Of a stretch of 64,000 nt of DNA, positions 805 through 13,870 are shown piece after piece. Made by a program: the position numbers and the translations under genes. The notes below the pieces were generated by a model that ran no database searches, was not told the origin of the DNA, and saw only the letters and a list, made by a program, of their open reading frames with translations. The stretch spans positions 32,221-96,220 of the forward strand of contig NZ_JBMDWH010000173.1 in NCBI RefSeq assembly GCF_048595345.1, given 5' to 3'. Position 1 is the first letter of the stretch; each line of letters starts with the position of its first letter. The DNA comes from Bosea sp. (in: a-proteobacteria). GTDB lineage: Bacteria; Pseudomonadota; Alphaproteobacteria; Rhizobiales; Beijerinckiaceae.

Positions 805-1206
805 ATGATGCATGCCGGTCCCTCACATCCGCAGCCGAGCCGCAACCCCCGGCCGGGCCGTGTCCTGCTCGCGCTGCTGGTCATGCTCGCGGCGGTGATG
901 CCGCATCTGACGCTGCTCGCCGCCCCCGGTCTCGCAACGCCCCGCCCCGCCTCGTCGGGAATGTCGCACCATGCGCCCGCGTCCCTCGCGCCCTGCCACG
1001 ATTCCGGTACCGACCGGGCCCTTCCGCCCAAGGCACCGGCGTGCTGCGTCGCAGCCTGCACGCTCTTGCCGGCGCCGGTCTCGATCGCGCTGCCCGCGCG
1101 CCTCATCGTCTGGGAGCCCTGGCGGGAGGCCGAAAGACCGCCGGGCGCCGGCCTCTCGCCGGAGCCGGCCAAGCCCCCACCCCGAACGGAACAGCTCCGC
1201 GCCTGA
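805..1206 (+). CDS. hypothetical exported/membrane protein with His and Cys clusters
   Basis: ORF 805..1206 shows strong G/C third-position bias in this frame. It has a hydrophobic N-terminal segment (LLALLVMLAAVM) and the motifs MSHH, PCHD and ACCVAAC. It lies directly upstream of a DUF305 gene. No family recognised. Confidence 0.4.
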   Translation: MMHAGPSHPQPSRNPRPGRVLLALLVMLAAVMPHLTLLAAPGLATPRPASSGMSHHAPASLAPCHDSGTDRALPPKAPACCVAACTLLPAPVSIALPARLIVWEPWREAERPPGAGLSPEPAKPPPRTEQLRA

Positions 1207-1277
1207 ACCCGTTCCCGACGAAGCCGCCGGCCAGCCGAGGCGCCCGGCCACGTCGCTCATTTTAAAGGATTGCCACG

Positions 1278-1652
1278 ATGAACCGTTATGTTTCGCAGAC
1301 CGCCGCCCTGGTGCTCGGGCTCTGCCTCGCCGCCCCCGCTTTCGCCCAACAGGGCCATCAGCACGGCGCGGCTCCGGCCTCCCGCACCAAGGCCGAGACA
1401 GCCTCCACACAGGCCTACAAGGCCGCGAACATGAAGATGCACAAGGACATGGACATCGCCTATTCCGGCGATGCCGATGTCGATTTCCTGCGCGGGATGA
1501 TCCCGCATCATCAGGGTGCGATCGAGATGGCGAAGATCGTTCTCAGCCATGGCAAGGACCCCGAGGTTCGCAAGCTCGCCGAAGCCATCGTCCGCGACCA
1601 GGAGAAGGAGGTCGCGATGATGCGCGAGATGCTGAAGAAGCTCGGCAAGTAG
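1278..1652 (+). CDS. DUF305-domain periplasmic protein (metal-homeostasis associated)
   Basis: Signal peptide ending AFAQQ. Carries the DUF305 signature DVDFLRGMIPHHQGAIEMAK ... LAEAIVRDQEKEVAMMREML. Confidence 0.8.
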   Translation: MNRYVSQTAALVLGLCLAAPAFAQQGHQHGAAPASRTKAETASTQAYKAANMKMHKDMDIAYSGDADVDFLRGMIPHHQGAIEMAKIVLSHGKDPEVRKLAEAIVRDQEKEVAMMREMLKKLGK

Positions 1653-3871: not shown

Positions 3872-3936
3872 GCCTCGGGCTTAGCCCTGCGCCTGGCCGA
3901 TGACCATTGCGCGGCGGGCATCCGGGGGGCGTGGAA

Positions 3937-6069
3937 TCAGACGCTACCGACGTTGCGCAGCCTCACGCGCGGGTGGATCTCCGCCTGCGACAGCACCGGC
4001 GTCTCCCGGCGGAACCGCTCGATGATCTGGCGGGCGAAGGGCCGCGCAAGGCCGGAGGTGACCAGCGCCGGCATCTCGCCCATGCGCGCCGCGTCCTCAA
4101 AGCGCTCGCGGACATGGCGCACGAAATCCTGCAGGCGGGAGGGCTGCATCGCCAGATGACGGTCCTCGCCCTGGCCAATGACGGATTCGGCGAAGACGCT
4201 TTCCCAGGCCGGCGAGAGGGTGATGATCGGCAGCGTGCCGTTGGCGTCCGAGAACTGGGCGCAGATCTGGCGCGCGAGGCGGGCCCGGACATGCTCGGCG
4301 ATGTCGCGCGGGTTCTTCACGCCGCCGGCGACCTCCGCGATCCCTTCGATGATGGTCGGCAGGTCGCGGATCGAGACGCGCTCGCCCAGCAGCAATTGCA
4401 GCACGCGCTGGATGCCCGTGGTCGAGATCTGCATCGGCACGATCTCCTTGACGAGATCGGCATGGTCCTTCGGCAGTTCGCGCAGCAGCTTCTGCACCTC
4501 GCCATGCGAGAGCAGCTCCGGCATGTTCGACTTCAGCACCTCGGTGAGATGCGTCGAGATCACGGTCGCCGCGTCCACCACCGTGTAGCCACGCAGCTGG
4601 GCCTCGTCCTGCAGCGCCCCGTCGATCCAGGTCGCGGGCAGGCCGAAGGTCGGCTCCAGCACGTTGTGGCCCGGCAGGTTGACCGTGCCGCCCATCGGGT
4701 CCATCGCCATGTACTGGCCGGCATAGACGATGCCGTGCCCGGCATCGATCTCCTTGATCTTGATGTAGTAGTGGTTCGACTCGAGCTGGACATTGTCGAC
4801 GATGCGCACGGCCGGCATCACGAAGCCCAGCTCGGCCGCCAGTTGGCGCCGCAGCGCCCGCACCTGGTCGGTCAGCCGGTCCTGCCCGCTCGTCGAGTTG
4901 ACCAGCGGCAGCAGGGCGTAGCCGATCTCGATCTTGAGCTCATCCATCTTGAGCAGATCGTTCAGCGTCTCCTCGCGGGCCGAGCCGTCTGCCGCGGTGC
5001 CGCCGCCGGCCTGGGCCGCGCCGGGCGCGGTGGCCGCAGCCGCCTCCTTCTCCTTCGCCAACCGGCCGAAGCGACGGGCGAGGTAACCCGCCCCGCCCGC
5101 GAGCGCGAGGAACGGCAGCATCGGAATGCCCGGCAGCAGCGCGATCAGCAGCATCACCGCCGCCGACATGCCGAGCGCCTTGGGATAGCCGGAGAGCTGC
5201 TGGCCGAGCGCCTTGTCGGCCGCGCCGCGCACGCCGGCCTTCGAGACCAGCAGGCCGGCCGCGGTCGAGACGATCAGCGCCGGGATCTGGCTGACGAGGC
5301 CGTCGCCGATCGTCAGCTGGGTGTAGTTGGTGGCCGCCTGTCCAAAGCTCAGCCCCTGCTGCGCGACGCCGATGACGATGCCGCCGAGCACGTTGATGAA
5401 GGTGATCAGCAGGCCGGCGATGGCATCGCCGCGCACGAATTTGGAAGCACCGTCCATCGAGCCGAAGAAGGCCGATTCGTCTTCTAGCGCGCGGCGCCGC
5501 GACTTTGCCGTGTCCTGGTCGATCAGGCCGGCGGAGAGATCGGCGTCGATCGCCATCTGCTTGCCGGGCATCGCGTCGAGGGAGAAGCGCGCCGCGACTT
5601 CGGCGATGCGGCCGGAGCCCTTTGTGATGACGATGAAGTTCACGATCAGCAGGATCGTGAACACGATCACGCCGATCACGAAATTGCCGCCCATGACGAA
5701 GCCGGCAAAGGCTTCGATGACATGGCCGGCGGCCGCCGTGCCCTCATGCCCATGCGCCAGGATAAGGCGCGTCGAGGCGAGGTTCAGGGCCAGCCGGAAC
5801 ATGGTGACGATGAGCAGCACCGTCGGAAAGGACGAGAACTCCAGCGGCTCCTCGATGAACAGCGCCGTCATCAGCACCAGCACCGAGACGATGATGGAGA
5901 GCGCCAGCATCAGATCCAGCAGGATCGCCGGCATCGGGAAGATGAGCACCACCAGGATGCCCATGACGCCCGCCGCCAGGAACAGGTCCGGCCGGCTCAA
6001 CATCTTGGCGAGCCCGCCCCGGCTCGGCATGCCGAACCCGCCCGCCTGCCCTGCCGTCACATCGGTCAT
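3937..6069 (-). CDS. flhA: flagellar type III export protein FlhA
   Basis: 710 aa with canonical FlhA motifs (FPTVLLIVTMFRLALNLASTRLIL, ITKGSGRIAEVAARFSLDAMPGKQMAIDADL, FVRGDAIAGL). Confidence 0.95.
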   Translation of the reverse strand: MTDVTAGQAGGFGMPSRGGLAKMLSRPDLFLAAGVMGILVVLIFPMPAILLDLMLALSIIVSVLVLMTALFIEEPLEFSSFPTVLLIVTMFRLALNLASTRLILAHGHEGTAAAGHVIEAFAGFVMGGNFVIGVIVFTILLIVNFIVITKGSGRIAEVAARFSLDAMPGKQMAIDADLSAGLIDQDTAKSRRRALEDESAFFGSMDGASKFVRGDAIAGLLITFINVLGGIVIGVAQQGLSFGQAATNYTQLTIGDGLVSQIPALIVSTAAGLLVSKAGVRGAADKALGQQLSGYPKALGMSAAVMLLIALLPGIPMLPFLALAGGAGYLARRFGRLAKEKEAAAATAPGAAQAGGGTAADGSAREETLNDLLKMDELKIEIGYALLPLVNSTSGQDRLTDQVRALRRQLAAELGFVMPAVRIVDNVQLESNHYYIKIKEIDAGHGIVYAGQYMAMDPMGGTVNLPGHNVLEPTFGLPATWIDGALQDEAQLRGYTVVDAATVISTHLTEVLKSNMPELLSHGEVQKLLRELPKDHADLVKEIVPMQISTTGIQRVLQLLLGERVSIRDLPTIIEGIAEVAGGVKNPRDIAEHVRARLARQICAQFSDANGTLPIITLSPAWESVFAESVIGQGEDRHLAMQPSRLQDFVRHVRERFEDAARMGEMPALVTSGLARPFARQIIERFRRETPVLSQAEIHPRVRLRNVGSV

Positions 6070-6142
6070 CGACCGCCTCGTCCCTGGCCATGCCGCGGCA
6101 GACCTGGAACGGTCGCCGAGCTCGGCAATTCTTGCCGGGTTT

Positions 6143-6161
6143 ATGGTGAACGAGTGGTTAA
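6143..6161 (-). promoter_or_regulatory. CtrA-type box upstream of flhA (TTAACCACTCGTTCACCAT on the minus strand)
   Basis: TTAA-N7-TTCA followed by CCAT, ending 74 nt upstream of the flhA ATG. It matches 14/19 positions of a box at the same distance from fliF. Confidence 0.5.
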
Positions 6162-6284
6162 GATCGGCGCCATCCCCGCGCCGGCCGGAACCTTTGCCGC
6201 CGGGCTCCGGTTGTCGAGAGCCGACAGAGGCCCGGCGCCGCCGGGTCGCAAACGTGCCGCCGGCACGGACGGATCGGGGGAACC

Positions 6285-7721
6285 GTGCGAAACGCGCAGC
6301 CAGCCGCCATCATCGAAACCGACGTCCCCGCGCGGCTCGACAGGCTGCCCTGGTCGCGCTTCCACACGATGGTCGTGGCCGCTCTGGGAATCACCTGGAT
6401 TCTCGACGGGCTGGAGGTGACGCTGGCGGGAGCCGTATCGGGCGCGCTGAAGGAAAGCCCCGTCCTGAGATTCACCAATACCGAGGTGGGTCTGGCGGGA
6501 GCGGCCTATATCGCCGGCGCCGTTCTCGGCGCGGTCGTCTTCGGCTGGCTGACCGACCGGCTCGGCCGCAAGAAGCTCTTCACCATCACGCTGCTGGTCT
6601 ATCTGGCGGCCGCCGCCGCGACGGCCTTCTCCTGGAACCTGTGGAGCTTCCTGATCTTCCGCTTCCTCACCGGCATGGGGATCGGCGGCGAATACACCGC
6701 CATCAACTCGACGATTCAGGAACTGATCCCGGCCCGCATGCGCGGCTGGACCGATCTGGTGATCAACGGCTCCTTCTGGGTCGGCGCAGCGATCGGCGCC
6801 GTGGGGGCGATCGTGCTGCTCGACCCGGCGCATATCGACCCCGAACATGGCTGGCGCCTCGCCTTCTTCATCGGCGCGGCGCTGGGGCTGGTCATTCTCC
6901 TGCTGCGGCAATTCCTGCCCGAAAGCCCGCGCTGGCTGATCAGCCACGGCCGGCCCGAAGAGGCTGCCGCTATCGTCGCCGAGATCGAAAGGCGGGCTGG
7001 CTTCACGCCTCCGGCCGGTGAGCGGCTGGCCATGACGCGGCTACGTCCGCGCGCCGCCACCCCGCTCGGCGAGGTGGCGCGGGCGCTGTTCGTCGTCCAC
7101 CGCGGCCGGGCGCTGGTCGGGCTGACGCTGATGGTGGCGCAGGCCTTCTTCTACAATGCGATCTTCTTCACCTATGCGCTGATCCTCACCGATTTCTACA
7201 ACGTGCCCTCGGCCTCGATCGGCTGGTTCATCCTGCCCTTCGCCGCCGGCAATTTTCTCGGCCCCCTGCTGCTCGGCCGCCTCTTCGACACGGTCGGCCG
7301 ACGCAGCATGATCGCGGCGACCTATGCGCTCTCGGGCGTCCTGCTGACCGGCACCGGCTATCTGTTCTGGCGCGACCTGCTGACGGCGGGCCAGCTTACC
7401 GCCTGCTGGAGCGTCGTCTTCTTCTTCGCCTCCGCCGCGGCGAGCTCGGCCTATCTCACGGTCTCGGAAACCTTCCCGGTCGAGATGCGCGCGCTCGCCA
7501 TCGCCTTGTTCTACGCGGTGGGCACCGGCGCGGGCGGTGTCGCCGGCCCCTGGATCTTTGGCGCGCTGATCGACACCGGCTCTCGCGCCAGCGTTTTCGG
7601 CGGCTATCTGTTCGGCGCGCTGCTGATGCTGATCGCGGCTTTCGTCGCCGCGCGCTTCGCCGTCAGGGCGGAACGTCAGCCGCTGGAGGCGGTGGCGCGG
7701 CCTCTGACAGCCGTGGATTGA
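6285..7721 (+). CDS. MFS transporter (metabolite/sugar porter-like)
   Basis: 478 aa with 12 predicted TM segments and the MFS loop motif GWLTDRLGRKK. GTG start as given in the ORF track. Confidence 0.85.
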   Translation: MRNAQPAAIIETDVPARLDRLPWSRFHTMVVAALGITWILDGLEVTLAGAVSGALKESPVLRFTNTEVGLAGAAYIAGAVLGAVVFGWLTDRLGRKKLFTITLLVYLAAAAATAFSWNLWSFLIFRFLTGMGIGGEYTAINSTIQELIPARMRGWTDLVINGSFWVGAAIGAVGAIVLLDPAHIDPEHGWRLAFFIGAALGLVILLLRQFLPESPRWLISHGRPEEAAAIVAEIERRAGFTPPAGERLAMTRLRPRAATPLGEVARALFVVHRGRALVGLTLMVAQAFFYNAIFFTYALILTDFYNVPSASIGWFILPFAAGNFLGPLLLGRLFDTVGRRSMIAATYALSGVLLTGTGYLFWRDLLTAGQLTACWSVVFFFASAAASSAYLTVSETFPVEMRALAIALFYAVGTGAGGVAGPWIFGALIDTGSRASVFGGYLFGALLMLIAAFVAARFAVRAERQPLEAVARPLTAVD

Positions 7722-7832
7722 TGCGCCTTCACCACGTTGCCTCGTACCGGGTGGAACAAGAGCCTCGCCGCGTGCATTATGATGAGCCCGCCCTATGATC
7801 GCGGGATTGGTGGAAACAGTCTGGAGGTCGTC

Positions 7833-8165
7833 GTGGACAGACGCTCATTCCTGATGACGCTGGTCGGGGGCCTCGCGGCTGCCGGCATGGGCGGCATCGC
7901 CGCTGCCGAAGCAGCCCAGCCCAAGGTAGCCCCGCCCGCGCCGGCCCCGCAGCCGGAACCCGCTCAGCCCAAAGGCGACGAGGCAGTGACGGCGGAGATG
8001 AAGGAGGCGCTGGACAAGACCGACGCCGAGTTCAGCCAGTACTACTATTATCGCCGGCCGCGTTATTATGCTCGCCCGCGCCCCTATTACCGGCCGCGGC
8101 CCTATTACCGTCCGCGCTATTATTACCGCCCCCGGCCGCGCTATTATCGCCGCCGCTACTGGTAA
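7833..8165 (+). CDS. Tat-signal small protein with a Tyr/Arg/Pro-only C-terminal tail
   Basis: GGAGG lies 5 nt before the GTG at 7833. The N-terminus (M)DRRSFLMTLVGGLAAAGMGGIAAAEA-AQ is a twin-arginine signal with an AxA site. The last 41 residues (8040..8162) are 16 Y, 15 R, 8 P, 1 A and 1 W. Confidence 0.6.
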   Translation: MDRRSFLMTLVGGLAAAGMGGIAAAEAAQPKVAPPAPAPQPEPAQPKGDEAVTAEMKEALDKTDAEFSQYYYYRRPRYYARPRPYYRPRPYYRPRYYYRPRPRYYRRRYW

Positions 8166-8184
8166 AATCGGATGACGGGCCGGG

Positions 8185-9549
<1,365 letters not shown>

Positions 9550-9593
9550 GGCTCAGGTCCTTGTGCGTGAAAGGAGGATCGGCGCAGCGCGCA

Positions 9594-9944
9594 TCAGCGA
9601 TCCGCCTTGATGATTTCAGTCATGGTCACGCCAAGGCGGTCCTCGACGACCACGACCTCGCCGCGCGCCACCAGCCGCTCGTTGACGAAGATGTCGATCG
9701 CCTCGCCGACGCGCCGGTCGAGCTCCAGGATCGTGCCGGGCACGATCTGCAGCAGGTCGCCGACTGCGACCTTGGAGGAGCCGAGCACCGCCGAGACCGT
9801 CACGGGCACGTCGAAGACCTGCTCGAGATCCTCGGCCGTCTTGACCGGCACCGGGCCGGAGCGCGCGACCGATCCCTCCCCCATGTCGAAAGACAGGTCG
9901 GCCTGGTTCAGCGGAGGCAGATTGATGTCGTTGTCCTGGCTCAT
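9594..9944 (-). CDS. fliN: flagellar motor switch protein FliN
   Basis: 116 aa with the SpoA/FliN C-terminal domain (VPVTVSAVLGSSKVAVGDLLQIVPGTILELDRRVGEAIDIFVNERLVARGEVVVV). Confidence 0.9.
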   Translation of the reverse strand: MSQDNDINLPPLNQADLSFDMGEGSVARSGPVPVKTAEDLEQVFDVPVTVSAVLGSSKVAVGDLLQIVPGTILELDRRVGEAIDIFVNERLVARGEVVVVEDRLGVTMTEIIKADR

Positions 9945-9955
9945 GACTCAGACTT

Positions 9956-10558
9956 TCAATGGCCCGCCATGCCGGAGGCGGCATGGGCGGGAAACACCTC
10001 TGCGACGGCGGTCTGGATGAGGCCGGTGAGGCGGTCGCGATCCATCACGAAACCGCCCTCGGCCCATTCGATGCGCCCATCGCCCGGCATGATGTCCGGC
10101 TCGCCGAGCACGATCAGCCGGCCGGCGAAGCCGGTTTCCAGCGTCAGCCGCTTCACCAGCGTCTCGGCCGCCTCGACCATCGCTTCATTGACACGCACCA
10201 CCAGATGCGGGGCCTGGCGGGCATGGCTCAGGCATTCGCGCACCGCGTCGCCCAGCAGGGCGAGCGGCTTTTCGGCGAGCGCCGCGCCGGCGAGCGCCTG
10301 CGCCGTGGCGATGGCGAGCTGCGCCGCCTGCTCCTCGATGGCCGCGACCCGCGCCTCCTCCATCGCGAAGAGGCGCTCGGCCGAGCGCGCGATCTGCACG
10401 GCGAGGCCGGCGACCTGTCCCTCCGCCTCCTGGCGCCCCTGCTCCAGCCCCTGGCGAAAACCCTCGACTCGGGCGGCGGCGAGATCGGCCTCGCCGGCGG
10501 CCTTGCGGCCGCCTTCGCGAAAATCCGTCCCGAACATGAATTTCGTCGCCGCTGCCAT
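9956..10558 (-). CDS. FliH-like flagellar assembly protein (FlbE position of the Caulobacter fliF operon)
   Basis: 200 aa, Ala/Glu-rich coiled N-terminal half, located between fliG and fliN. Confidence 0.65.
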   Translation of the reverse strand: MAAATKFMFGTDFREGGRKAAGEADLAAARVEGFRQGLEQGRQEAEGQVAGLAVQIARSAERLFAMEEARVAAIEEQAAQLAIATAQALAGAALAEKPLALLGDAVRECLSHARQAPHLVVRVNEAMVEAAETLVKRLTLETGFAGRLIVLGEPDIMPGDGRIEWAEGGFVMDRDRLTGLIQTAVAEVFPAHAASGMAGH

Positions 10559-10559
10559 G

Positions 10560-11636
10560 TCAGTACACCAGTTCGTCCTCGGCGCCGCCCTTGGTGAGCG
10601 TGATCTCGCCCTTGTCGGCGAGCTCCTTGGTGAGTTGCACCAGCTGCGTCTGCGCCTCGTCGACGTCCTTCAGCCGCATGGGGCCAAGCGCCTCCATGTC
10701 GTCCTGCATGTTCTTGGCGGCGCGGGCCGACATGGCCCCGAAGAAAAAGTCGCGCATCGGCTGGCTGGCGCCTTTCAGCGCGCGGGCGAGCGCCGCCTTG
10801 TCCGCCTGGGCGACCAGTGTCTGCAAACCGGCCGGGTCGAGCTTGGCGAGATCCTCGAAGGTGAACATCAGAGCGCGGATGCGCTCGGCGGCCTCCTGGT
10901 TCGAGACATCCAGCGCGGAGAGGAAGCGCATCTCGGTCTGGCGGTCGAAGCCGTTGAAGATTTCCGCCATCATCTCGTGCGGATCGCGCCGGCGGGTCTG
11001 GGTCAGTGTCGAGACGAATTCGGTGCGCAGCGTGTTCTCGATATGGTCGAGCGCCTCCTTCTGCACCGATTCCAGCCGCAGCATCCGGCCCACCACCTCG
11101 ATCGAGAGATCTCCTGGCAGGTTGCGCAGCACGTTTGCCGCGTGCTCCGGCCTGATCTTCGAGAGGATCACCGCGATCGTCTGCGGATATTCGTTCTTGA
11201 GGAAGTTGGCGAGCACGACGGCGTCGATATTGCCGAGCTTCTGCCACATGTTGCGGCCGGCCGGGCCGCGGATTTCCTCCATGATCAGCGCGACCTGCTC
11301 GGTCGGCAGGATCTTCTCCAGCAGCGAGATGGTGCGGTCGAAGGAGCCGGTCACCGCGCCGGCGCTGGAGAGCTTGCCGACGAAATCCAGCATCAGCCGC
11401 TCGACCTCGTCGGCATTGACGGTGCCGAGCTCGGCCATCGAGCGGGTGATGATGCGGATCTCGTCGTCGTCGAACTGCTGCCAGATCGTGCGGCCATGGT
11501 CTTCGCCCAGCACCAGCAGAATGACGGCGGCCCGCTGCGGGCCGGTCATCTCCGCGAGGGTGGAGACGCCGATGCCACCGCCCTCGATCTCTCCGAGGTT
11601 CATATTGCCGGCGACGAGGGAACGGGCATCCGCCAT
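10560..11636 (-). CDS. fliG: flagellar motor switch protein FliG
   Basis: 358 aa with FliG motifs (GPQRAAVILLVLGEDHG, EDLAKLD, MSARAAKNMQDDMEALGPMRLKDVDEAQ). Confidence 0.95.
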   Translation of the reverse strand: MADARSLVAGNMNLGEIEGGGIGVSTLAEMTGPQRAAVILLVLGEDHGRTIWQQFDDDEIRIITRSMAELGTVNADEVERLMLDFVGKLSSAGAVTGSFDRTISLLEKILPTEQVALIMEEIRGPAGRNMWQKLGNIDAVVLANFLKNEYPQTIAVILSKIRPEHAANVLRNLPGDLSIEVVGRMLRLESVQKEALDHIENTLRTEFVSTLTQTRRRDPHEMMAEIFNGFDRQTEMRFLSALDVSNQEAAERIRALMFTFEDLAKLDPAGLQTLVAQADKAALARALKGASQPMRDFFFGAMSARAAKNMQDDMEALGPMRLKDVDEAQTQLVQLTKELADKGEITLTKGGAEDELVY

Positions 11637-11650
11637 GGGTCAGGCCTCCG

Positions 11651-13324
11651 TCACGCCGCCGCCCGTTCGTGGATCCAGCTGCGCAGCACCGCGACGGAAT
11701 CCGCCGGGTTCTGCGCCACGAGCGCGCCGATCTTCTCGACCGACTGCGCCTTGAGCTGGCCCTTGATCTGAGCGATCGCGAGCATTTTTTCCGAGGGCAT
11801 CTCGTAATCGGCCGCCGAGACCTCCGAAGCGGCGCTGCGGGGGAGCATGGCCGGATCGCCTGTGCCTTCCGGCACCGCGACGGCGCCGGTGCGCATGAAG
11901 CTCGGAATCGGGCGAACGGCGACACTGTTGTCGGCCGCCAGGATCTGCTTCAGCAGCGGGCGCACCACCGTCATGAGCACGATCAGGGTCAGCAGCGAGA
12001 TCACGGCCAGCTCGGCGAAGCGGACGATATCCTCCCGTGTGAAGGACATCAGCTGCTGCACCAGGCTCTGCTCGACCAGATCCTGCGGTGCGGCCGGCGC
12101 CTCCGCGAAGCGCAGATTGACGACCTCGACCTTGTCGCCCCGGCCCTGGTCGAAGCCGACGGCGGTGCGCACGAGTTCGCCGATCCGGTCGAGATCCTCG
12201 TTGCTGCGCGGCTGATACGTCGCCTCGCCATTGGCGCCGCGGGTGTAGACGCCATCGACCAGCACCGCGACCGACAGCTTCCTGACGCGGCCGCCCTCCT
12301 GCATCTCGGTGCGGATCGTCTTGGAGATCTCGTAATTCGCGACCTCCTCGTTCTTCTGCGAGTTTTCGCGCTGGCTCTGCGCGCCTTGCGTCTGCTGGGC
12401 GCCGGGCAGTTCGTTGCCGACGGTGACGGTGCCGTTGCCGCCATCGCTGGTGGTCGAGGCTTCCGTGCGGTTCTGGCTGGAGCGCAGCACGCGGCTTTCG
12501 GGATCGAAGCTTTCCGAGCGGCTCTCCACCCGGTTGGTGTCGAGCGCCGCCGAGACCTGCACCCGCGCCCGGCCATAGCCGACGACGCTGGCCACGATAT
12601 CCTCGACCTGCGACTTCAGCCGCTTCTCGATCGCCGTCTGCCGTTCCTCGACGCCGAGCCCGGCGAGGCCGCCATCGCTCTGCGCGCCATCGGCGAGCAG
12701 CCGGCCGCGCTCGTCGACGATCGAGACCCGCTCCGGCTTGAGCCCGTCGACCGCCGAGGCCACGAGATGACGCACCGCGCGCACCTGCGCGGCATCGAGC
12801 TCGCCGGCGAGCTTGAGCGCGATCGAGGCCCGCGGCGGCTCGCGGTCGCGCTCGAACAGGCGCCGCTCGGGAATGACGAGATGCACCCGCGCCGCCTGAA
12901 CACGGCCGATCGAGCGGATGGTGCGGGAGAGCTCCCCTTCCAGGGCCCGCAGATGATTGATGTTCTGGACGAAGCTCGTCGAGGAGAAGGCATCGCCCTT
13001 GTCGAAGATCTCGTAGCCCACGCCGCCGCCGGCCGGGATGCCCTTGCCCGCGAGGTCCATGCGCAGGCGGGCGACGTCGGTCTTCGGAACGAGGATGGTC
13101 TGCCCGTCGCCGCGAAGCTCGTATTTGATGCCGCGTGTATCGAGGTCCTTGACGATGGCGCTGACGTCCTGACTCGACAGGTCGGCGAACAGCACGGTCA
13201 AGGCCGGCTGCGACATGCGCATCATCACGAAGGCGAAGAAGCCCACGAGCACGAGCGTGACAGCCAGCATGGCTGCCAGCCGCGCCGCGCCGAACCTCGC
13301 AAACTGCTCGAGAACCGCGTTCAC
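11651..13324 (-). CDS. fliF: flagellar MS-ring protein FliF
   Basis: 557 aa with an N-terminal TM segment, a YscJ/FliF domain (LFADLSSQDVSAIVKDLDTRGIKYEL) and a C-terminal TM segment. Confidence 0.95.
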   Translation of the reverse strand: MNAVLEQFARFGAARLAAMLAVTLVLVGFFAFVMMRMSQPALTVLFADLSSQDVSAIVKDLDTRGIKYELRGDGQTILVPKTDVARLRMDLAGKGIPAGGGVGYEIFDKGDAFSSTSFVQNINHLRALEGELSRTIRSIGRVQAARVHLVIPERRLFERDREPPRASIALKLAGELDAAQVRAVRHLVASAVDGLKPERVSIVDERGRLLADGAQSDGGLAGLGVEERQTAIEKRLKSQVEDIVASVVGYGRARVQVSAALDTNRVESRSESFDPESRVLRSSQNRTEASTTSDGGNGTVTVGNELPGAQQTQGAQSQRENSQKNEEVANYEISKTIRTEMQEGGRVRKLSVAVLVDGVYTRGANGEATYQPRSNEDLDRIGELVRTAVGFDQGRGDKVEVVNLRFAEAPAAPQDLVEQSLVQQLMSFTREDIVRFAELAVISLLTLIVLMTVVRPLLKQILAADNSVAVRPIPSFMRTGAVAVPEGTGDPAMLPRSAASEVSAADYEMPSEKMLAIAQIKGQLKAQSVEKIGALVAQNPADSVAVLRSWIHERAAA

Positions 13325-13397
13325 GCCGCCATCCGTTCCACAAGACCGTGGCCACCGCGCGCCTGGCGCGATCCACTAGGCAAGTTTTTCCCGGTGC

Positions 13398-13416
13398 ATG
13401 GTTAGCGGTCGGTTAA
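13398..13416 (-). promoter_or_regulatory. CtrA-type box upstream of fliF (TTAACCGACCGCTAACCAT on the minus strand)
   Basis: TTAA-N7-CTAA followed by CCAT, ending 74 nt upstream of the fliF ATG. The flhA box has the same spacing and 14/19 identical positions. Confidence 0.5.
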
Positions 13417-13855: not shown

Positions 13856-13870
13856 TTAAGATTTGCCTAA
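13856..13870 (-). promoter_or_regulatory. weaker CtrA-like box upstream of sciP (TTAG-N7-TTAA on the minus strand)
   Basis: Minus strand reads TTAGGCAAATCTTAA, about 55 nt upstream of the 13801 ATG. Confidence 0.3.

What the first reader, a model, noticed from the sequence alone, without database searches (positions are those of the whole stretch)
7833..8165. Tat-signal small protein ending in a 41-residue tail made almost only of Tyr, Arg and Pro
Seen in sequence: a strong RBS (GGAGG-5 nt-GTG) precedes a textbook twin-arginine leader, (M)DRRSFLMTLVGGLAAAGMGGIAAAEA/AQ. The leader is followed by a Pro/Ala linker and an acidic helix (GDEAVTAEMKEALDKTDAEFSQ). The protein then ends YYYYRRPRYYARPRPYYRPRPYYRPRYYYRPRPRYYRRRYW at 8040..8162, where 39 of 41 residues are Y, R or P. 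The DNA there is a degenerate ~18-nt repeat that uses TAT/TAC heavily in an otherwise GC-rich genome. Established knowledge: RPRP/YxPRP-type motifs characterise eukaryotic proline-rich antimicrobial peptides that enter cells via SbmA/BacA-type transporters. Inference (speculative): this is an exported polycationic aromatic peptide whose acidic pro-region masks the basic tail. It may bind polyanions such as EPS, LPS or nucleic acid, or act as a bacteriocin-like effector. It interrupts the otherwise Caulobacter-like flbD-flhA adjacency together with an MFS transporter.
Basis: partly seen in the sequence, partly recalled or inferred. Interest (0 to 1): 0.65.

Follow-up and report, generated by a model that had tools for sequence, protein, structure and literature searches.

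The report
Tat-signal protein with Arg/Tyr tail
This is a real, conserved gene for a small exported protein whose tail is almost pure arginine and tyrosine; it belongs to a large family that nobody has described, and its function is still inferred rather than shown.

Summary
ORF 7833..8165 (+) has a GGAGG ribosome-binding site and a GTG start. It encodes an RRSFL leader, an acidic helix and a 41-residue tail with 39 Y/R/P residues.

It is a genuine gene. The reading frame is intact at the same place (flhA, MFS, gene, flbD) in 56 of 56 Bosea loci. dN/dS is 0.20 overall and 0.10 in the tail. Tail length varies from 33 to 46 residues but always stays in frame.

It belongs to an unannotated family: 301 clusters at 50% identity and 711 proteins at 90%. 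Named members come from Bosea, Methylosinus and Beijerinckiaceae.

Family-wide features point to export. RR-x-F is invariant. Cysteines occur only in pairs; these form a confidently predicted C-terminal beta-hairpin in a subfamily.

A conserved ECF/EcfG-type promoter motif (GGAAC-N16/17-C[G/A]TT) lies about 80-100 nt upstream in Bosea, including in front of paralogues at other loci.

The likeness to proline-rich antimicrobial peptides is not conserved. Proline is 12.5% in orthologue tails, and RPRP occurs in 9 of 56.

No partner gene is conserved, and the MFS transporter is dispensable.

Best reading: a stress-promoter-driven, Tat-exported polycation that binds anionic envelope polymers. An antimicrobial role remains possible. 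Expression data were uninformative.

The parts
7753..7778 (+). ECF/EcfG-type promoter-like motif. GGAAC (7753-7757), a 17-nt spacer, then CATT (7775-7778). It lies 80 nt upstream of the start codon.
   Evidence: This is the only such site in the window. The strict motif GGAAC-N16/17-C[GA]TT lies at -80 to -100 in 31 of 56 orthologues, and a relaxed form in 45 of 56. Background is 0.003 (strict) and 0.008 (relaxed) per 96 nt. The -35 and -10 elements are kept while the spacer differs. The motif also precedes V-type and non-syntenic paralogues. The published EcfG motif is GGAAC-N17-20-GTT and includes CATT variants (PMC6599016).
7823..7827 (+). Ribosome-binding site GGAGG, 5 nt before the GTG start codon.
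   Evidence: GGAGG lies within 16 nt of the start codon in 56 of 56 orthologues.
7833..8165 (+). Coding sequence for a 110-aa pre-protein (GTG start, TAA stop).
   Evidence: The ORF is intact and syntenic in 56 of 56 Bosea loci. dN/dS is 0.20. Alternative frames are open in at most 18 of 56 loci, and antisense frames in at most 1 of 56.
7833..7913 (+). Twin-arginine-type signal peptide, residues 1-27: (M)DRRSFL, a Gly/Ala-rich hydrophobic region, then AEA before the predicted cleavage site.
   Evidence: M1, R3, R4 and F6 are invariant, and S5 is nearly so, in 28 diverse members. R4 is invariant, and R3, F6 and L7 are at least 90% conserved, in 18 distant members. The hydrophobic region is 55% Gly+Ala. 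TIGR01409 matches 6 of 28 relatives, but not this protein. AlphaFold2 predicts a helix at residues 3-27.
7914..7973 (+). Pro/Ala-rich linker, residues 28-47. It is variable and predicted to be disordered.
   Evidence: It has the highest dN/dS of the protein, 0.44. pLDDT is below 50 for residues 20-47.
7974..8039 (+). Conserved acidic helix ending in LDKTDAEFSQ, residues 48-69. Residues 28-69 together have net charge -4.
   Evidence: L60, D61, D64, F67, S68 and Q69 are invariant in 14 members. AlphaFold2 predicts a helix at residues 49-72 with pLDDT about 70-73. Charge count.
8040..8162 (+). Arg/Tyr/Pro tail, residues 70-110. It is built of degenerate RPRYYx hexapeptide repeats, carries net charge +15, and ends in RRRYW.
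   Evidence: Composition. DNA repeats of period 18 and 24 nt span 8046-8154. Orthologue tails are 33-46 aa, pooled Y 44%, R 37%, P 12.5%, and end in RRY[WY] or similar. dN/dS is 0.10. AlphaFold2 predicts coil with pLDDT about 52.
8173..8222 (.). G+C-rich hairpin between the convergent small gene and flbD. It overlaps the 3' end of flbD. It has no U-tract on the + strand.
   Evidence: Minimum free energy is -39.1 kcal/mol, z-score -3.8 against shuffles. A fold of -33 kcal/mol or stronger lies just downstream of the stop codon in 54 of 56 orthologues.
6285..7721 (+). Upstream MFS (Sugar_tr-type) transporter gene. It is a frequent neighbour but not an obligatory one.
   Evidence: Pfam PF00083 match, E = 6e-44. 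It is absent in L001, L025, L038, L040 and L044, all of which keep the small gene.

Best explanation
The ORF is a real gene of an undescribed family of small proteins (about 90-115 aa). The family occurs in Bosea, Methylosinus and related Hyphomicrobiales.

Shown:
- The architecture is a twin-arginine leader (RR-x-F-L, a Gly/Ala-rich hydrophobic region, AxA), a variable Pro/Ala linker, a conserved acidic helix ending in ...EFSQ, and a 33-46-residue tail of RPRYY[Y/A] repeats with net charge about +15.
- The gene is under purifying selection.
- The tail changes length by in-frame gain and loss of repeats.

Inferred:
1. In Bosea, transcription starts from the gene's own ECF sigma promoter of the EcfG (general stress response) type.
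2. The pre-protein is exported by Tat as a small, hydrophilic, unstructured substrate. A +15 poly-Arg segment would be a poor Sec substrate.
3. The leader is cut after AEA, leaving an 83-aa periplasmic or envelope protein.
4. The Arg/Tyr tail is a multivalent binder. Arg bonds to phosphate and carboxylate groups; Tyr stacks on sugars and on Arg. Likely targets are anionic envelope polymers: LPS, phospholipid head groups, peptidoglycan or exopolysaccharide.
5. The target is most likely the cell's own envelope under stress, because this is a core, vertically inherited, stand-alone gene.

My confidence by part:
- real protein-coding gene: about 0.97
- located outside the cytoplasm, via Tat: about 0.8
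- ECF-type promoter: about 0.55
- binder of the cell's own envelope: about 0.4
For: Real gene:
- The ORF is intact and syntenic in 56 of 56 Bosea loci, with GGAGG in every one.
- dN/dS is 0.20 overall and 0.10 in the tail. Other frames are rarely open.

Family:
- 179 hits, 301 clusters at 50% identity and 711 proteins at 90%, all with the same architecture.

Export:
- RR-x-F is invariant while the rest of the protein diverges to 35-40% identity.
- TIGR01409 (Tat signal model) matches 6 of 28 relatives.
- Among 302 members the mature part has 0 Cys (283 members), 2 Cys (18) or 3 Cys (1), never 1.
- In the Cys-bearing subfamily the pair brackets an invariant RRC...G...RRC hairpin. AlphaFold2 predicts it with pLDDT about 92. 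This implies a disulfide, and so an oxidising compartment.
- Tat tolerates unstructured hydrophilic cargo of up to 100-120 aa (PMC6708511).

Promoter:
- The GGAAC-N16/17-C[GA]TT motif sits at a fixed distance upstream, far above background.
- It also precedes paralogues in unrelated genomic contexts.
- It matches the published EcfG motif, which includes CATT variants.

Stand-alone core gene:
- No neighbour is conserved across the family.

Arg specifically selected:
- Tails hold 4610 R against 25 K, although K is used in the linker.
Against: - There is no direct evidence of expression. The public runs that hold the locus show flat depth or only isolated fragments, and they may contain DNA.
- The window protein itself matches neither TIGR01409 nor PF10518 at E <= 10.
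- The -10 element here is CATT, not the canonical CGTT.
- The promoter motif is absent upstream of members outside Bosea.
- Nothing identifies the binding partner.
- An exported +15 Arg/aromatic peptide could equally be antimicrobial.
- The conserved position between flhA and flbD is not explained by a stress function.
Confidence: 0.4

Rival explanations
1. The protein is the precursor of a cationic antimicrobial peptide. The acidic region would be a pro-piece. The conserved ...EFSQ/YYYY junction would be a processing site. The released Arg/aromatic tail would attack competitors' membranes or intracellular targets.
For: - The tail composition (R, Y, W, V; almost no K) resembles Arg/Trp-type antimicrobial peptides.
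- A subfamily ends in an invariant disulfide-bracketed cationic beta-hairpin, RRC-x7-8-G-x3-4-RRC, predicted with pLDDT about 92. Its style resembles arenicin-1, RWCVYAYVRVRGVLVRYRRCW (PMC6780910).
- An anionic pro-region plus a conserved junction is typical of antimicrobial peptide precursors.
- Tails have diversified into Y, V, W, H and GY types, with 1-3 paralogues per genome.
Against: - No immunity, maturation or export gene is conserved next to family members.
- The MFS transporter is dispensable.
- Tat delivers only to the producer's own periplasm, and no route across the outer membrane is evident.
- The gene is core and syntenic in 56 of 56 genomes, not strain-variable or mobile as bacteriocin loci usually are.
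- The tail is under purifying selection, dN/dS 0.10.
- The motifs of proline-rich antimicrobial peptides are not conserved.
Confidence: 0.22
2. The protein is a periplasmic accessory factor of the flagellum, for example one that binds peptidoglycan or the outer membrane around the basal body. On this view its fixed place between flhA and the fliF-fliG-fliH-fliN-flbD operon reflects function.
For: - The gene lies between flhA and flbD in all 56 Bosea loci.
- A family member also lies there in a more distant genus (flhA 75% and flbD 76% identical), although the other genes in the gap differ.
- In about 30 loci a second (V-type) paralogue sits in the same gap.
Against: - No sigma-54 promoter-like site lies upstream. 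An ECF-type motif is there instead.
- Paralogues and distant members lie in unrelated, non-flagellar contexts, for example next to lepA and an Exo_endo_phos gene, or in Methylosinus.
- The gene is convergent with flbD and is not part of either flagellar operon.
Confidence: 0.1
3. The leader is not cleaved and acts as a signal anchor, as in Rieske proteins. The protein would then be tethered to the inner membrane with its tail in the periplasm, where it would bridge the membrane to anionic periplasmic polymers.
For: - AlphaFold2 models residues 3-27 as a single helix.
- Two of 28 relatives weakly match the PetC (Rieske) transmembrane-anchor model.
- A simple AxA pattern search found such a site in only 34 of 56 orthologues; the others have SEA-type sites.
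Against: - Small residues at positions -3 and -1 (AEA, SEA, AQA) followed by A/Q-P are conserved at the same position across the family. This is what a signal peptidase I site looks like.
- The Gly/Ala-rich hydrophobic region is only weakly hydrophobic for a stable anchor.
Confidence: 0.12
4. There is no gene. On this view a non-coding tandem DNA repeat happens to be open in one reading frame in a G+C-rich genome.
For: - The tail is encoded by a degenerate 18-nt repeat.
- Long spurious ORFs are common in this window, for example the 151-aa antisense ORF at 7845-8300.
Against: - The frame is open in 56 of 56 loci despite many changes in length.
- The leader, the EFSQ motif and the RRRY[WY]-stop ending are all conserved.
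- GGAGG is present in 56 of 56 loci, and dN/dS is 0.2.
- Antisense frames are open in at most 1 of 56 loci.
- There is no Rfam match.
- The repeat is found nowhere else in the window.
Confidence: 0.02

Closest known systems
Proline-rich antimicrobial peptides (Bac7, PR-39, oncocin, apidaecin), recalled from knowledge
   Same: They are short, strongly cationic, Arg-rich and unstructured. In this strain the tail has RPRP and Y-x-PRP-like strings.
   Different: - Proline is 19.5% of the tail here, 12.5% in orthologue tails and 6.8% across the family.
- Tyr and Arg dominate instead (44% and 37%).
- RPRP occurs in only 9 of 56 orthologues.
- The protein is bacterial and has a Tat leader.
- There is no link to SbmA/BacA.
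- There is no sequence homology.
Disulfide-closed cationic beta-hairpin antimicrobial peptides (arenicin-1, RWCVYAYVRVRGVLVRYRRCW, PMC6780910; tachyplesin and bactenecin recalled from knowledge)
   Same: Eighteen of 302 relatives end in RRC-x7-8-G-x3-4-RRC-[WYF], a confidently predicted hairpin rich in R, W, Y and V. As in precursors of animal antimicrobial peptides, an anionic segment precedes the cationic part.
   Different: - The window protein has no cysteine, and its tail is predicted to be coil.
- There is no homology.
- The producers are alphaproteobacteria, and the peptides are made behind a Tat leader.
Small secreted proteins of unknown function in the alphaproteobacterial EcfG (general stress response) regulon
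   Same: A GGAAC-N16/17-C[G/A]TT motif lies within 100 nt of the start codon. EcfG-controlled genes in Sphingomonas melonis have the same arrangement, including a 'predicted small secreted protein' whose -10 element is CATT (PMC6599016).
   Different: Regulation was not tested in Bosea. The motif is not found upstream of family members outside Bosea. There is no sequence relationship to any described regulon member.
Artificial unstructured Tat cargo (FG-repeat fusions; Richter et al. 2007, as reviewed in PMC6708511)
   Same: It is a small (under 120 aa), hydrophilic, unstructured polypeptide behind a twin-arginine signal peptide. That is the class Tat was shown to tolerate.
   Different: Those were engineered proteins. 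This would be a natural family, it is extremely cationic, and its Tat dependence has not been tested.
Tyr/Arg 'sticker' sequences that act through cation-pi contacts (mussel foot proteins, FUS-type condensates), recalled from knowledge
   Same: The composition is dominated by Tyr and a cationic residue. Arg is overwhelmingly preferred over Lys (4610 against 25). The proteins are secreted and disordered.
   Different: There is no evidence of DOPA formation, adhesion or condensation. The proteins are bacterial and periplasmic. The resemblance is in composition only.

Membership tests
Twin-arginine (Tat) signal peptide | Consensus S/T-R-R-x-F-L-K at the boundary of the n- and h-regions | tested here: met
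   The sequence here is D-R-R-S-F-L-M. R3, R4 and F6 are invariant and S5 nearly so in 28 members. R4 is invariant, and R3, F6 and L7 are at least 90% conserved, in 18 distant members.
Twin-arginine (Tat) signal peptide | Weakly hydrophobic h-region followed by an A-x-A signal peptidase site | tested here: met
   The h-region FLMTLVGGLAAAGMGGIAAA is 55% Gly+Ala. AEA is followed by AQP at residues 25-30. A/S-x-A is kept at this position in relatives.
Twin-arginine (Tat) signal peptide | Match to the curated profile models (TIGR01409, PF10518) | tested here: inconclusive
   The window protein has no match at E <= 10. TIGR01409 matches 6 of 28 relatives (best E = 1.2e-5). PF10518 matches 4 of 28 (best E = 0.032).
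Twin-arginine (Tat) signal peptide | Export depends on TatABC and on the RR pair | not testable with these tools
   This needs RR-to-KK and tatC mutants with cell fractionation.
Proline-rich antimicrobial peptides | High proline content (about 25% or more) with repeated PRP/RPRP-type motifs conserved in the family | tested here: not met
   Proline is 19.5% in this tail, 12.5% pooled over 56 orthologue tails and 6.8% over 302 family tails. RPRP occurs in 9 of 56 orthologues. The conserved unit is RPRYY[Y/A/R].
Proline-rich antimicrobial peptides | Uptake through SbmA/BacA and action on the ribosome or DnaK | not testable with these tools
No SbmA/BacA gene is consistently linked. A Pfam BacA-family gene (PF02673) lies 4 kb from one paralogue only.
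Bacteriocin or microcin locus | Conserved linkage to immunity, maturation or export genes | tested here: not met
   Neighbours differ between family members. The MFS gene is missing in 5 syntenic loci.
Bacteriocin or microcin locus | Patchy, strain-variable or mobile distribution | tested here: not met
   The gene is present at the same chromosomal position in 56 of 56 Bosea loci from different species.
EcfG (general stress response) regulon | Promoter GGAAC-N16/17-CGTT at a suitable distance upstream | tested here: met
   GGAAC-N17-CATT lies at 7753-7778. The strict motif occurs in 31 of 56 orthologues at -80 to -100, against a background of 0.003 per 96 nt. Exact CGTT forms precede V-type and non-syntenic paralogues. 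CATT variants are listed among EcfG targets. The match is to a motif only.
EcfG (general stress response) regulon | EcfG/PhyR-dependent, stress-induced transcription | not testable with these tools
   The public runs that hold the locus gave flat or fragmentary coverage and may contain DNA.
Flagellar regulon (class III/IV, FlbD/sigma-54 dependent) | Sigma-54 promoter (TGGCAC-N5-TTGC) upstream | tested here: not met
   No site with 2 or fewer mismatches lies between 3797 and 11412.
Disulfide beta-hairpin cationic peptides | A cysteine pair closing a cationic hairpin | tested here: not met
   The window protein has no Cys. The feature exists in 18 of 302 relatives.

The most novel reading that the evidence does not exclude
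These proteins are a previously unrecognised class of unmodified, ribosomally made cationic peptides of Gram-negative bacteria. They are exported by Tat rather than by the ABC exporters used for microcins. Their Arg/Tyr(/Trp) tails, some of them arenicin-like disulfide hairpins, would be released from an anionic pro-piece at the conserved EFSQ/YYYY junction. The released peptide would act on membranes or nucleic acids of competitors or of invaders of the periplasm. Alternatively the tails would form cation-pi condensates in the envelope.
Probability: 0.2. Interest if true: 0.85.

Novelty: new variant of a known kind. Interest (0 to 1): 0.55.

Why it matters
A family with hundreds of members has escaped all annotation: it has no Pfam or NCBIfam model and is always labelled 'hypothetical'. 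Yet it has a sharply defined architecture: a Tat leader, an acidic helix and an Arg/aromatic tail.

- If Tat dependence is confirmed, it would be a natural example of Tat exporting a small, intrinsically disordered and extremely cationic cargo. So far that is known mainly from engineered substrates.
- If the promoter prediction holds, it adds an envelope-directed polycation to the alphaproteobacterial general stress response, much of whose regulon is of unknown function.
- If instead the tails are antimicrobial, they would be a new bacterial source of Arg/Tyr/Trp peptides and beta-hairpin peptides, with an unusual export route.

Each of these is testable with simple experiments.

Tried and rejected
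- Pfam, NCBIfam, PADLOC and PDB sequence searches with the protein found nothing meaningful.
- An Rfam scan of 6000-9700 found nothing.
- A scan for sigma-70 promoters found none. The only intrinsic-terminator-like site lies inside flbD.
- A sigma-54 consensus search found no site near the gene.
- The first locus search, with a 28-sequence alignment, failed because no stretch was conserved enough. It was repeated with 14 closer sequences.
- Expression could not be assessed.
  - Runs guessed to be RNA, and runs labelled metatranscriptomic, have 7-250 kb contigs and flat depth across convergent genes, so they may contain DNA.
  - In four low-coverage RNA-seq runs, isolated 151-225-nt contigs fall on the gene. 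Those runs were chosen because they hold words from this gene, so this is not evidence of preferential expression.
- Literature searches for Arg/Tyr-rich Tat proteins found nothing relevant.
- A cluster look-up gave no taxon names for distant members.
- I rejected the antisense 151-aa ORF at 7845-8300. That frame is open in at most 1 of 56 orthologues.
- I rejected a remnant of the V-type paralogue in the window. tblastn finds only the Y-type gene.
- I rejected RiPP-type modification, because no modifying enzyme is conserved nearby.
Full report
**1. Observation**

- GGAGG lies at 7823-7827, followed by 5 nt and GTG at 7833. The ORF runs to TAA at 8163-8165.
- The product has 110 residues: (M)DRRSFLMTLVGGLAAAGMGGIAAAEA-AQ, a Pro/Ala linker, GDEAVTAEMKEALDKTDAEFSQ, and a 41-residue tail.
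- The tail holds 16 Y, 15 R, 8 P, 1 A and 1 W, with net charge +15.
- Five neighbouring genes contain 12.7% Y+R+P (Y alone 1.3%). So 39 of 41 has a binomial probability of about 7e-33.
- Tandem Repeats Finder reports degenerate repeats of period 18 and 24 nt over 8046-8154.
- The repeat, and any comparable R/Y-rich stretch in any frame, occurs nowhere else in the window.
- The acidic segment has net charge only -4, so it cannot neutralise the tail.

**2. It is a real gene**

The whole-database search returned 179 small 'hypothetical' proteins with the same layout. A scan of one genome per species found 66 loci, nearly all from Bosea. The closest locus is from Bosea sp. TND4EK4, with FlhA 96% identical.
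- In 56 loci with usable flanks, the ORF sits at the same place. The order is flhA (-), usually an MFS transporter gene (+), the small gene (+), then the convergent flbD-fliN-fliH-fliG-fliF operon (-).
- All 56 have GGAGG within 16 nt of a GTG, ATG or TTG start.
- All keep the leader, the ...LDK[TA]DA[ED]FSQ motif and an RRRY[W/Y]-type C-terminus.
- Tails vary from 33 to 46 residues, always in frame.
- Pairwise Nei-Gojobori dN/dS is 0.20 overall: signal 0.19, linker 0.44, acidic helix 0.30, tail 0.10.
- The other five frames are open over the whole gene in at most 18 of 56 loci, and the antisense frames in at most 1 of 56. So the 151-aa antisense ORF at 7845-8300 in this window is spurious.
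- There is no Rfam match.

**3. The family**

A profile search of 1.84 billion cluster representatives found 301 clusters with E <= 1e-3. Almost all are 85-135 aa and match over their full length. A second search, with distant members as the query, found 711 proteins. Named sources are Bosea, Methylosinus sp. PW1 and Beijerinckiaceae metagenome-assembled genomes. No member has a Pfam domain or a functional name. The window protein matches no Pfam, NCBIfam, PADLOC or PDB entry.

The architecture is constant:
- M-[DE]-R-R-x-F-L;
- about 20 Gly/Ala-rich hydrophobic residues;
- a small-x-small site;
- a variable Pro/Ala linker;
- an acidic stretch ending in Q;
- an Arg/aromatic tail.

Tail flavours differ between members: RPRYYY, RRRYW, V/T-rich, H-rich and GY-rich types.

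Over 302 members:
- the last 35 residues are 44% R, 25% Y, 7% P and 6% W;
- R outnumbers K by 4610 to 25;
- median tail charge is +17, against -5 for the preceding part;
- the C-terminal residue is W or Y in 251 of 302.

**4. Evidence for export**

- R3, R4 and F6 are invariant in 28 diverse members. They remain invariant or at least 90% conserved in 18 members that share only 33-53% identity. That degree of conservation fits a Tat motif, not a Sec n-region.
- The Tat profile TIGR01409 matches 6 of 28 relatives (best E = 1.2e-5), though not the window protein.
- Independently, cysteines in the mature part occur as 0 (283 members), 2 (18) or 3 (1), never 1.
- In the Cys-bearing subfamily the two Cys and a central Gly are invariant or nearly so: RRC-x7-8-G-x3-4-RRC.
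- AlphaFold2 predicts a beta-hairpin there with pLDDT about 92, while the rest of the model is of low confidence.
- Paired cysteines closing a hairpin imply a disulfide, and so an oxidising compartment outside the cytoplasm.
- For the window protein, AlphaFold2 gives a helix for the leader (residues 3-27), a disordered linker, a helix at 49-72 (pLDDT about 70), and a coil tail with pLDDT about 52.
- Tat is known to accept small, hydrophilic, unstructured cargo of up to 100-120 residues (review PMC6708511).
- It is my inference that a +15 poly-Arg segment would pass poorly through Sec.

**5. Regulation**

The region upstream of the orthologues is poorly conserved, apart from the ribosome-binding site and two short blocks.
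- The two blocks are GGAAC and, 16-17 nt later, C[G/A]TT. A typical example is GGAACAAAGCATCATTTAAATGCATTA. Some loci have the canonical form, GGAACACAGACCACGAAAATGCGTT.
- The strict motif lies at -80 to -100 in 31 of 56 orthologues, and a relaxed form in 45 of 56. Background is 0.003 (strict) and 0.008 (relaxed) per 96 nt.
- In the window it is GGAAC (7753-7757), 17 nt, then CATT (7775-7778). This is the only such site in 64 kb. Here the spacer has diverged while both elements are retained.
- Exact GGAAC-N16-CGTT motifs also precede the V-type paralogue in 13 of 30 loci. They also precede paralogues at an unrelated locus, between lepA and an Exo_endo_phos gene.
- This matches the EcfG promoter of the alphaproteobacterial general stress response, GGAAC-N17-20-GTT. 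The published target list includes CATT variants, among them a 'predicted small secreted protein' (PMC6599016).
- There is no sigma-54-like site and no sigma-70-like site upstream.
- The motif was not found upstream of members outside Bosea.
- A -39 kcal/mol hairpin (z = -3.8) follows the stop codon and overlaps the end of flbD. Comparable folds follow 54 of 56 orthologues.

**6. Expression**

I could not obtain usable expression evidence.
- Runs that hold the locus, including ones labelled metatranscriptomic, have contigs of up to 250 kb and flat depth across convergent genes.
- In four low-coverage RNA-seq runs, single 151-225-nt contigs fall on the gene. Those runs were chosen because they hold words from this gene.

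**7. Genomic context**

- The MFS gene is missing in 5 loci that keep the small gene.
- About 30 loci carry a second paralogue between flhA and the MFS gene. It has the same leader and acidic motif but a V/R/T/P tail (...RRPVVVRRTTVVRRP...). The window lacks it.
- Distant members have unrelated neighbours and no recurring partner.
- One member from a more distant genus (FlhA 75% and FlbD 76% identical) again lies between flhA and flbD. It shares that gap with different passenger genes.
- So the small gene is the oldest resident of the gap. Whether that reflects function or inertia is open.

**8. Interpretation**

Shown: a real, selected, genus-wide gene of a large undescribed family, with a Tat-type leader and an Arg/Tyr repeat tail.

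Inferred:
- export by Tat and cleavage of the leader after AEA;
- transcription from an EcfG-type promoter;
- action as a multivalent binder of anionic envelope polymers.

I favour the cell's own envelope as the target (about 0.4). The gene is core, vertically inherited and stand-alone, and it is preceded by a stress-type promoter.

An antimicrobial role (about 0.2) is kept alive by the composition, the anionic pro-piece, the conserved EFSQ/YYYY junction and the arenicin-like hairpin subfamily (PMC6780910). It is weakened by the lack of immunity or export genes, by the fact that Tat reaches only the periplasm, and by the non-mobile distribution of the gene.

A flagellar role (about 0.1) rests only on position.

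The specific analogy with proline-rich antimicrobial peptides fails. Proline is 12.5% in orthologue tails, RPRP occurs in 9 of 56, and the conserved unit is RPRYY[Y/A/R].

**9. Novelty**

I found no family model and no paper describing these proteins. Mechanistically this is a variant of a known kind: an exported polycationic peptide with an anionic pro-region. Its export signal and composition are unusual. If the antimicrobial or condensate reading proved true, it would be a new class.

Noticed in passing
L004-L059, about 5900-6330 in locus coordinates (for example L018 6011-6331); absent from window 6070-6284: About 30 Bosea loci carry a second paralogue between flhA and the MFS gene. It has the same leader and LDKADA[ED]FSQ motif, but its tail is made of V, R, T and P (RRPVVVRRTTVVRRPxPY, a repeat of about 18 residues) instead of Y, R and P. 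In 13 of 30 loci it is preceded by a GGAAC-N16-CGTT motif.
   Followed up: partly
Protein P0004 (ENA metagenome contig, 1281 nt), compared with window 8040-8162: This protein is 95% identical to the window protein, but its tail is only 16 residues long (YYYYRRPRYYRRRYW-type) instead of 41. The cause is either a natural contraction of the 18-nt repeat or a collapse during assembly.
   Followed up: no
window 1188-1213 (+) and ORF 1278-1652 (+): The only exact GGAAC-N17-CGTT site in the window lies 65 nt upstream of a 124-aa ORF. That ORF has a Sec-type signal peptide and resembles DUF305; I judged this by eye and by analogy with the DUF305 gene next to flhA in L075. It may be a second member of the same ECF regulon.
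   Followed up: no
window 6147-6161, 13402-13416, 13856-13870: Near-matches to the CtrA box (TTAA-N7-TTAA, 1 mismatch) lie in the divergent flhA/MFS intergenic region and upstream of fliF. There are 4 in the window against 0.74 expected. This fits Caulobacter-type class II flagellar promoters.
   Followed up: no
window 8173-8222: A very stable hairpin (-39 kcal/mol, z = -3.8) lies between the convergent small gene and flbD and overlaps the last codons of flbD. It has no U-tract. A comparably stable fold is present in 54 of 56 orthologous loci.
   Followed up: partly
L075 3974-8176 (JGI metagenome contig, 608 kb): In a more distant genus (FlhA 75% identical), the flhA-flbD gap again holds a family member. 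It shares the gap with a Methyltransf_21 gene, an SBF transporter gene and an AMP-binding enzyme gene, instead of the MFS gene.
   Followed up: partly
Orthologue promoters, for example L019, L020 and L029, about 94 nt upstream of the start codon: In many orthologues the promoter spacer contains the AT-rich palindrome CATTTAAATG (within GCATCATTTAAATGCATTA). This could be a regulator binding site that overlaps the promoter. It is not present in the window's spacer.
   Followed up: no
Sequencing runs X10-X14, X17, X27-X29 and X43, laid on window 3900-13400: Runs guessed or labelled as RNA or metatranscriptomic hold contigs of 7-250 kb from Bosea-like organisms, with flat depth over convergent genes. 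They therefore probably contain genomic DNA and cannot be used to infer expression.
   Followed up: yes
window 7845-8300 (-): A 151-aa antisense ORF overlaps the gene. It is an artefact of high G+C content: the antisense frames are open over the whole gene in at most 1 of 56 orthologues.
   Followed up: yes
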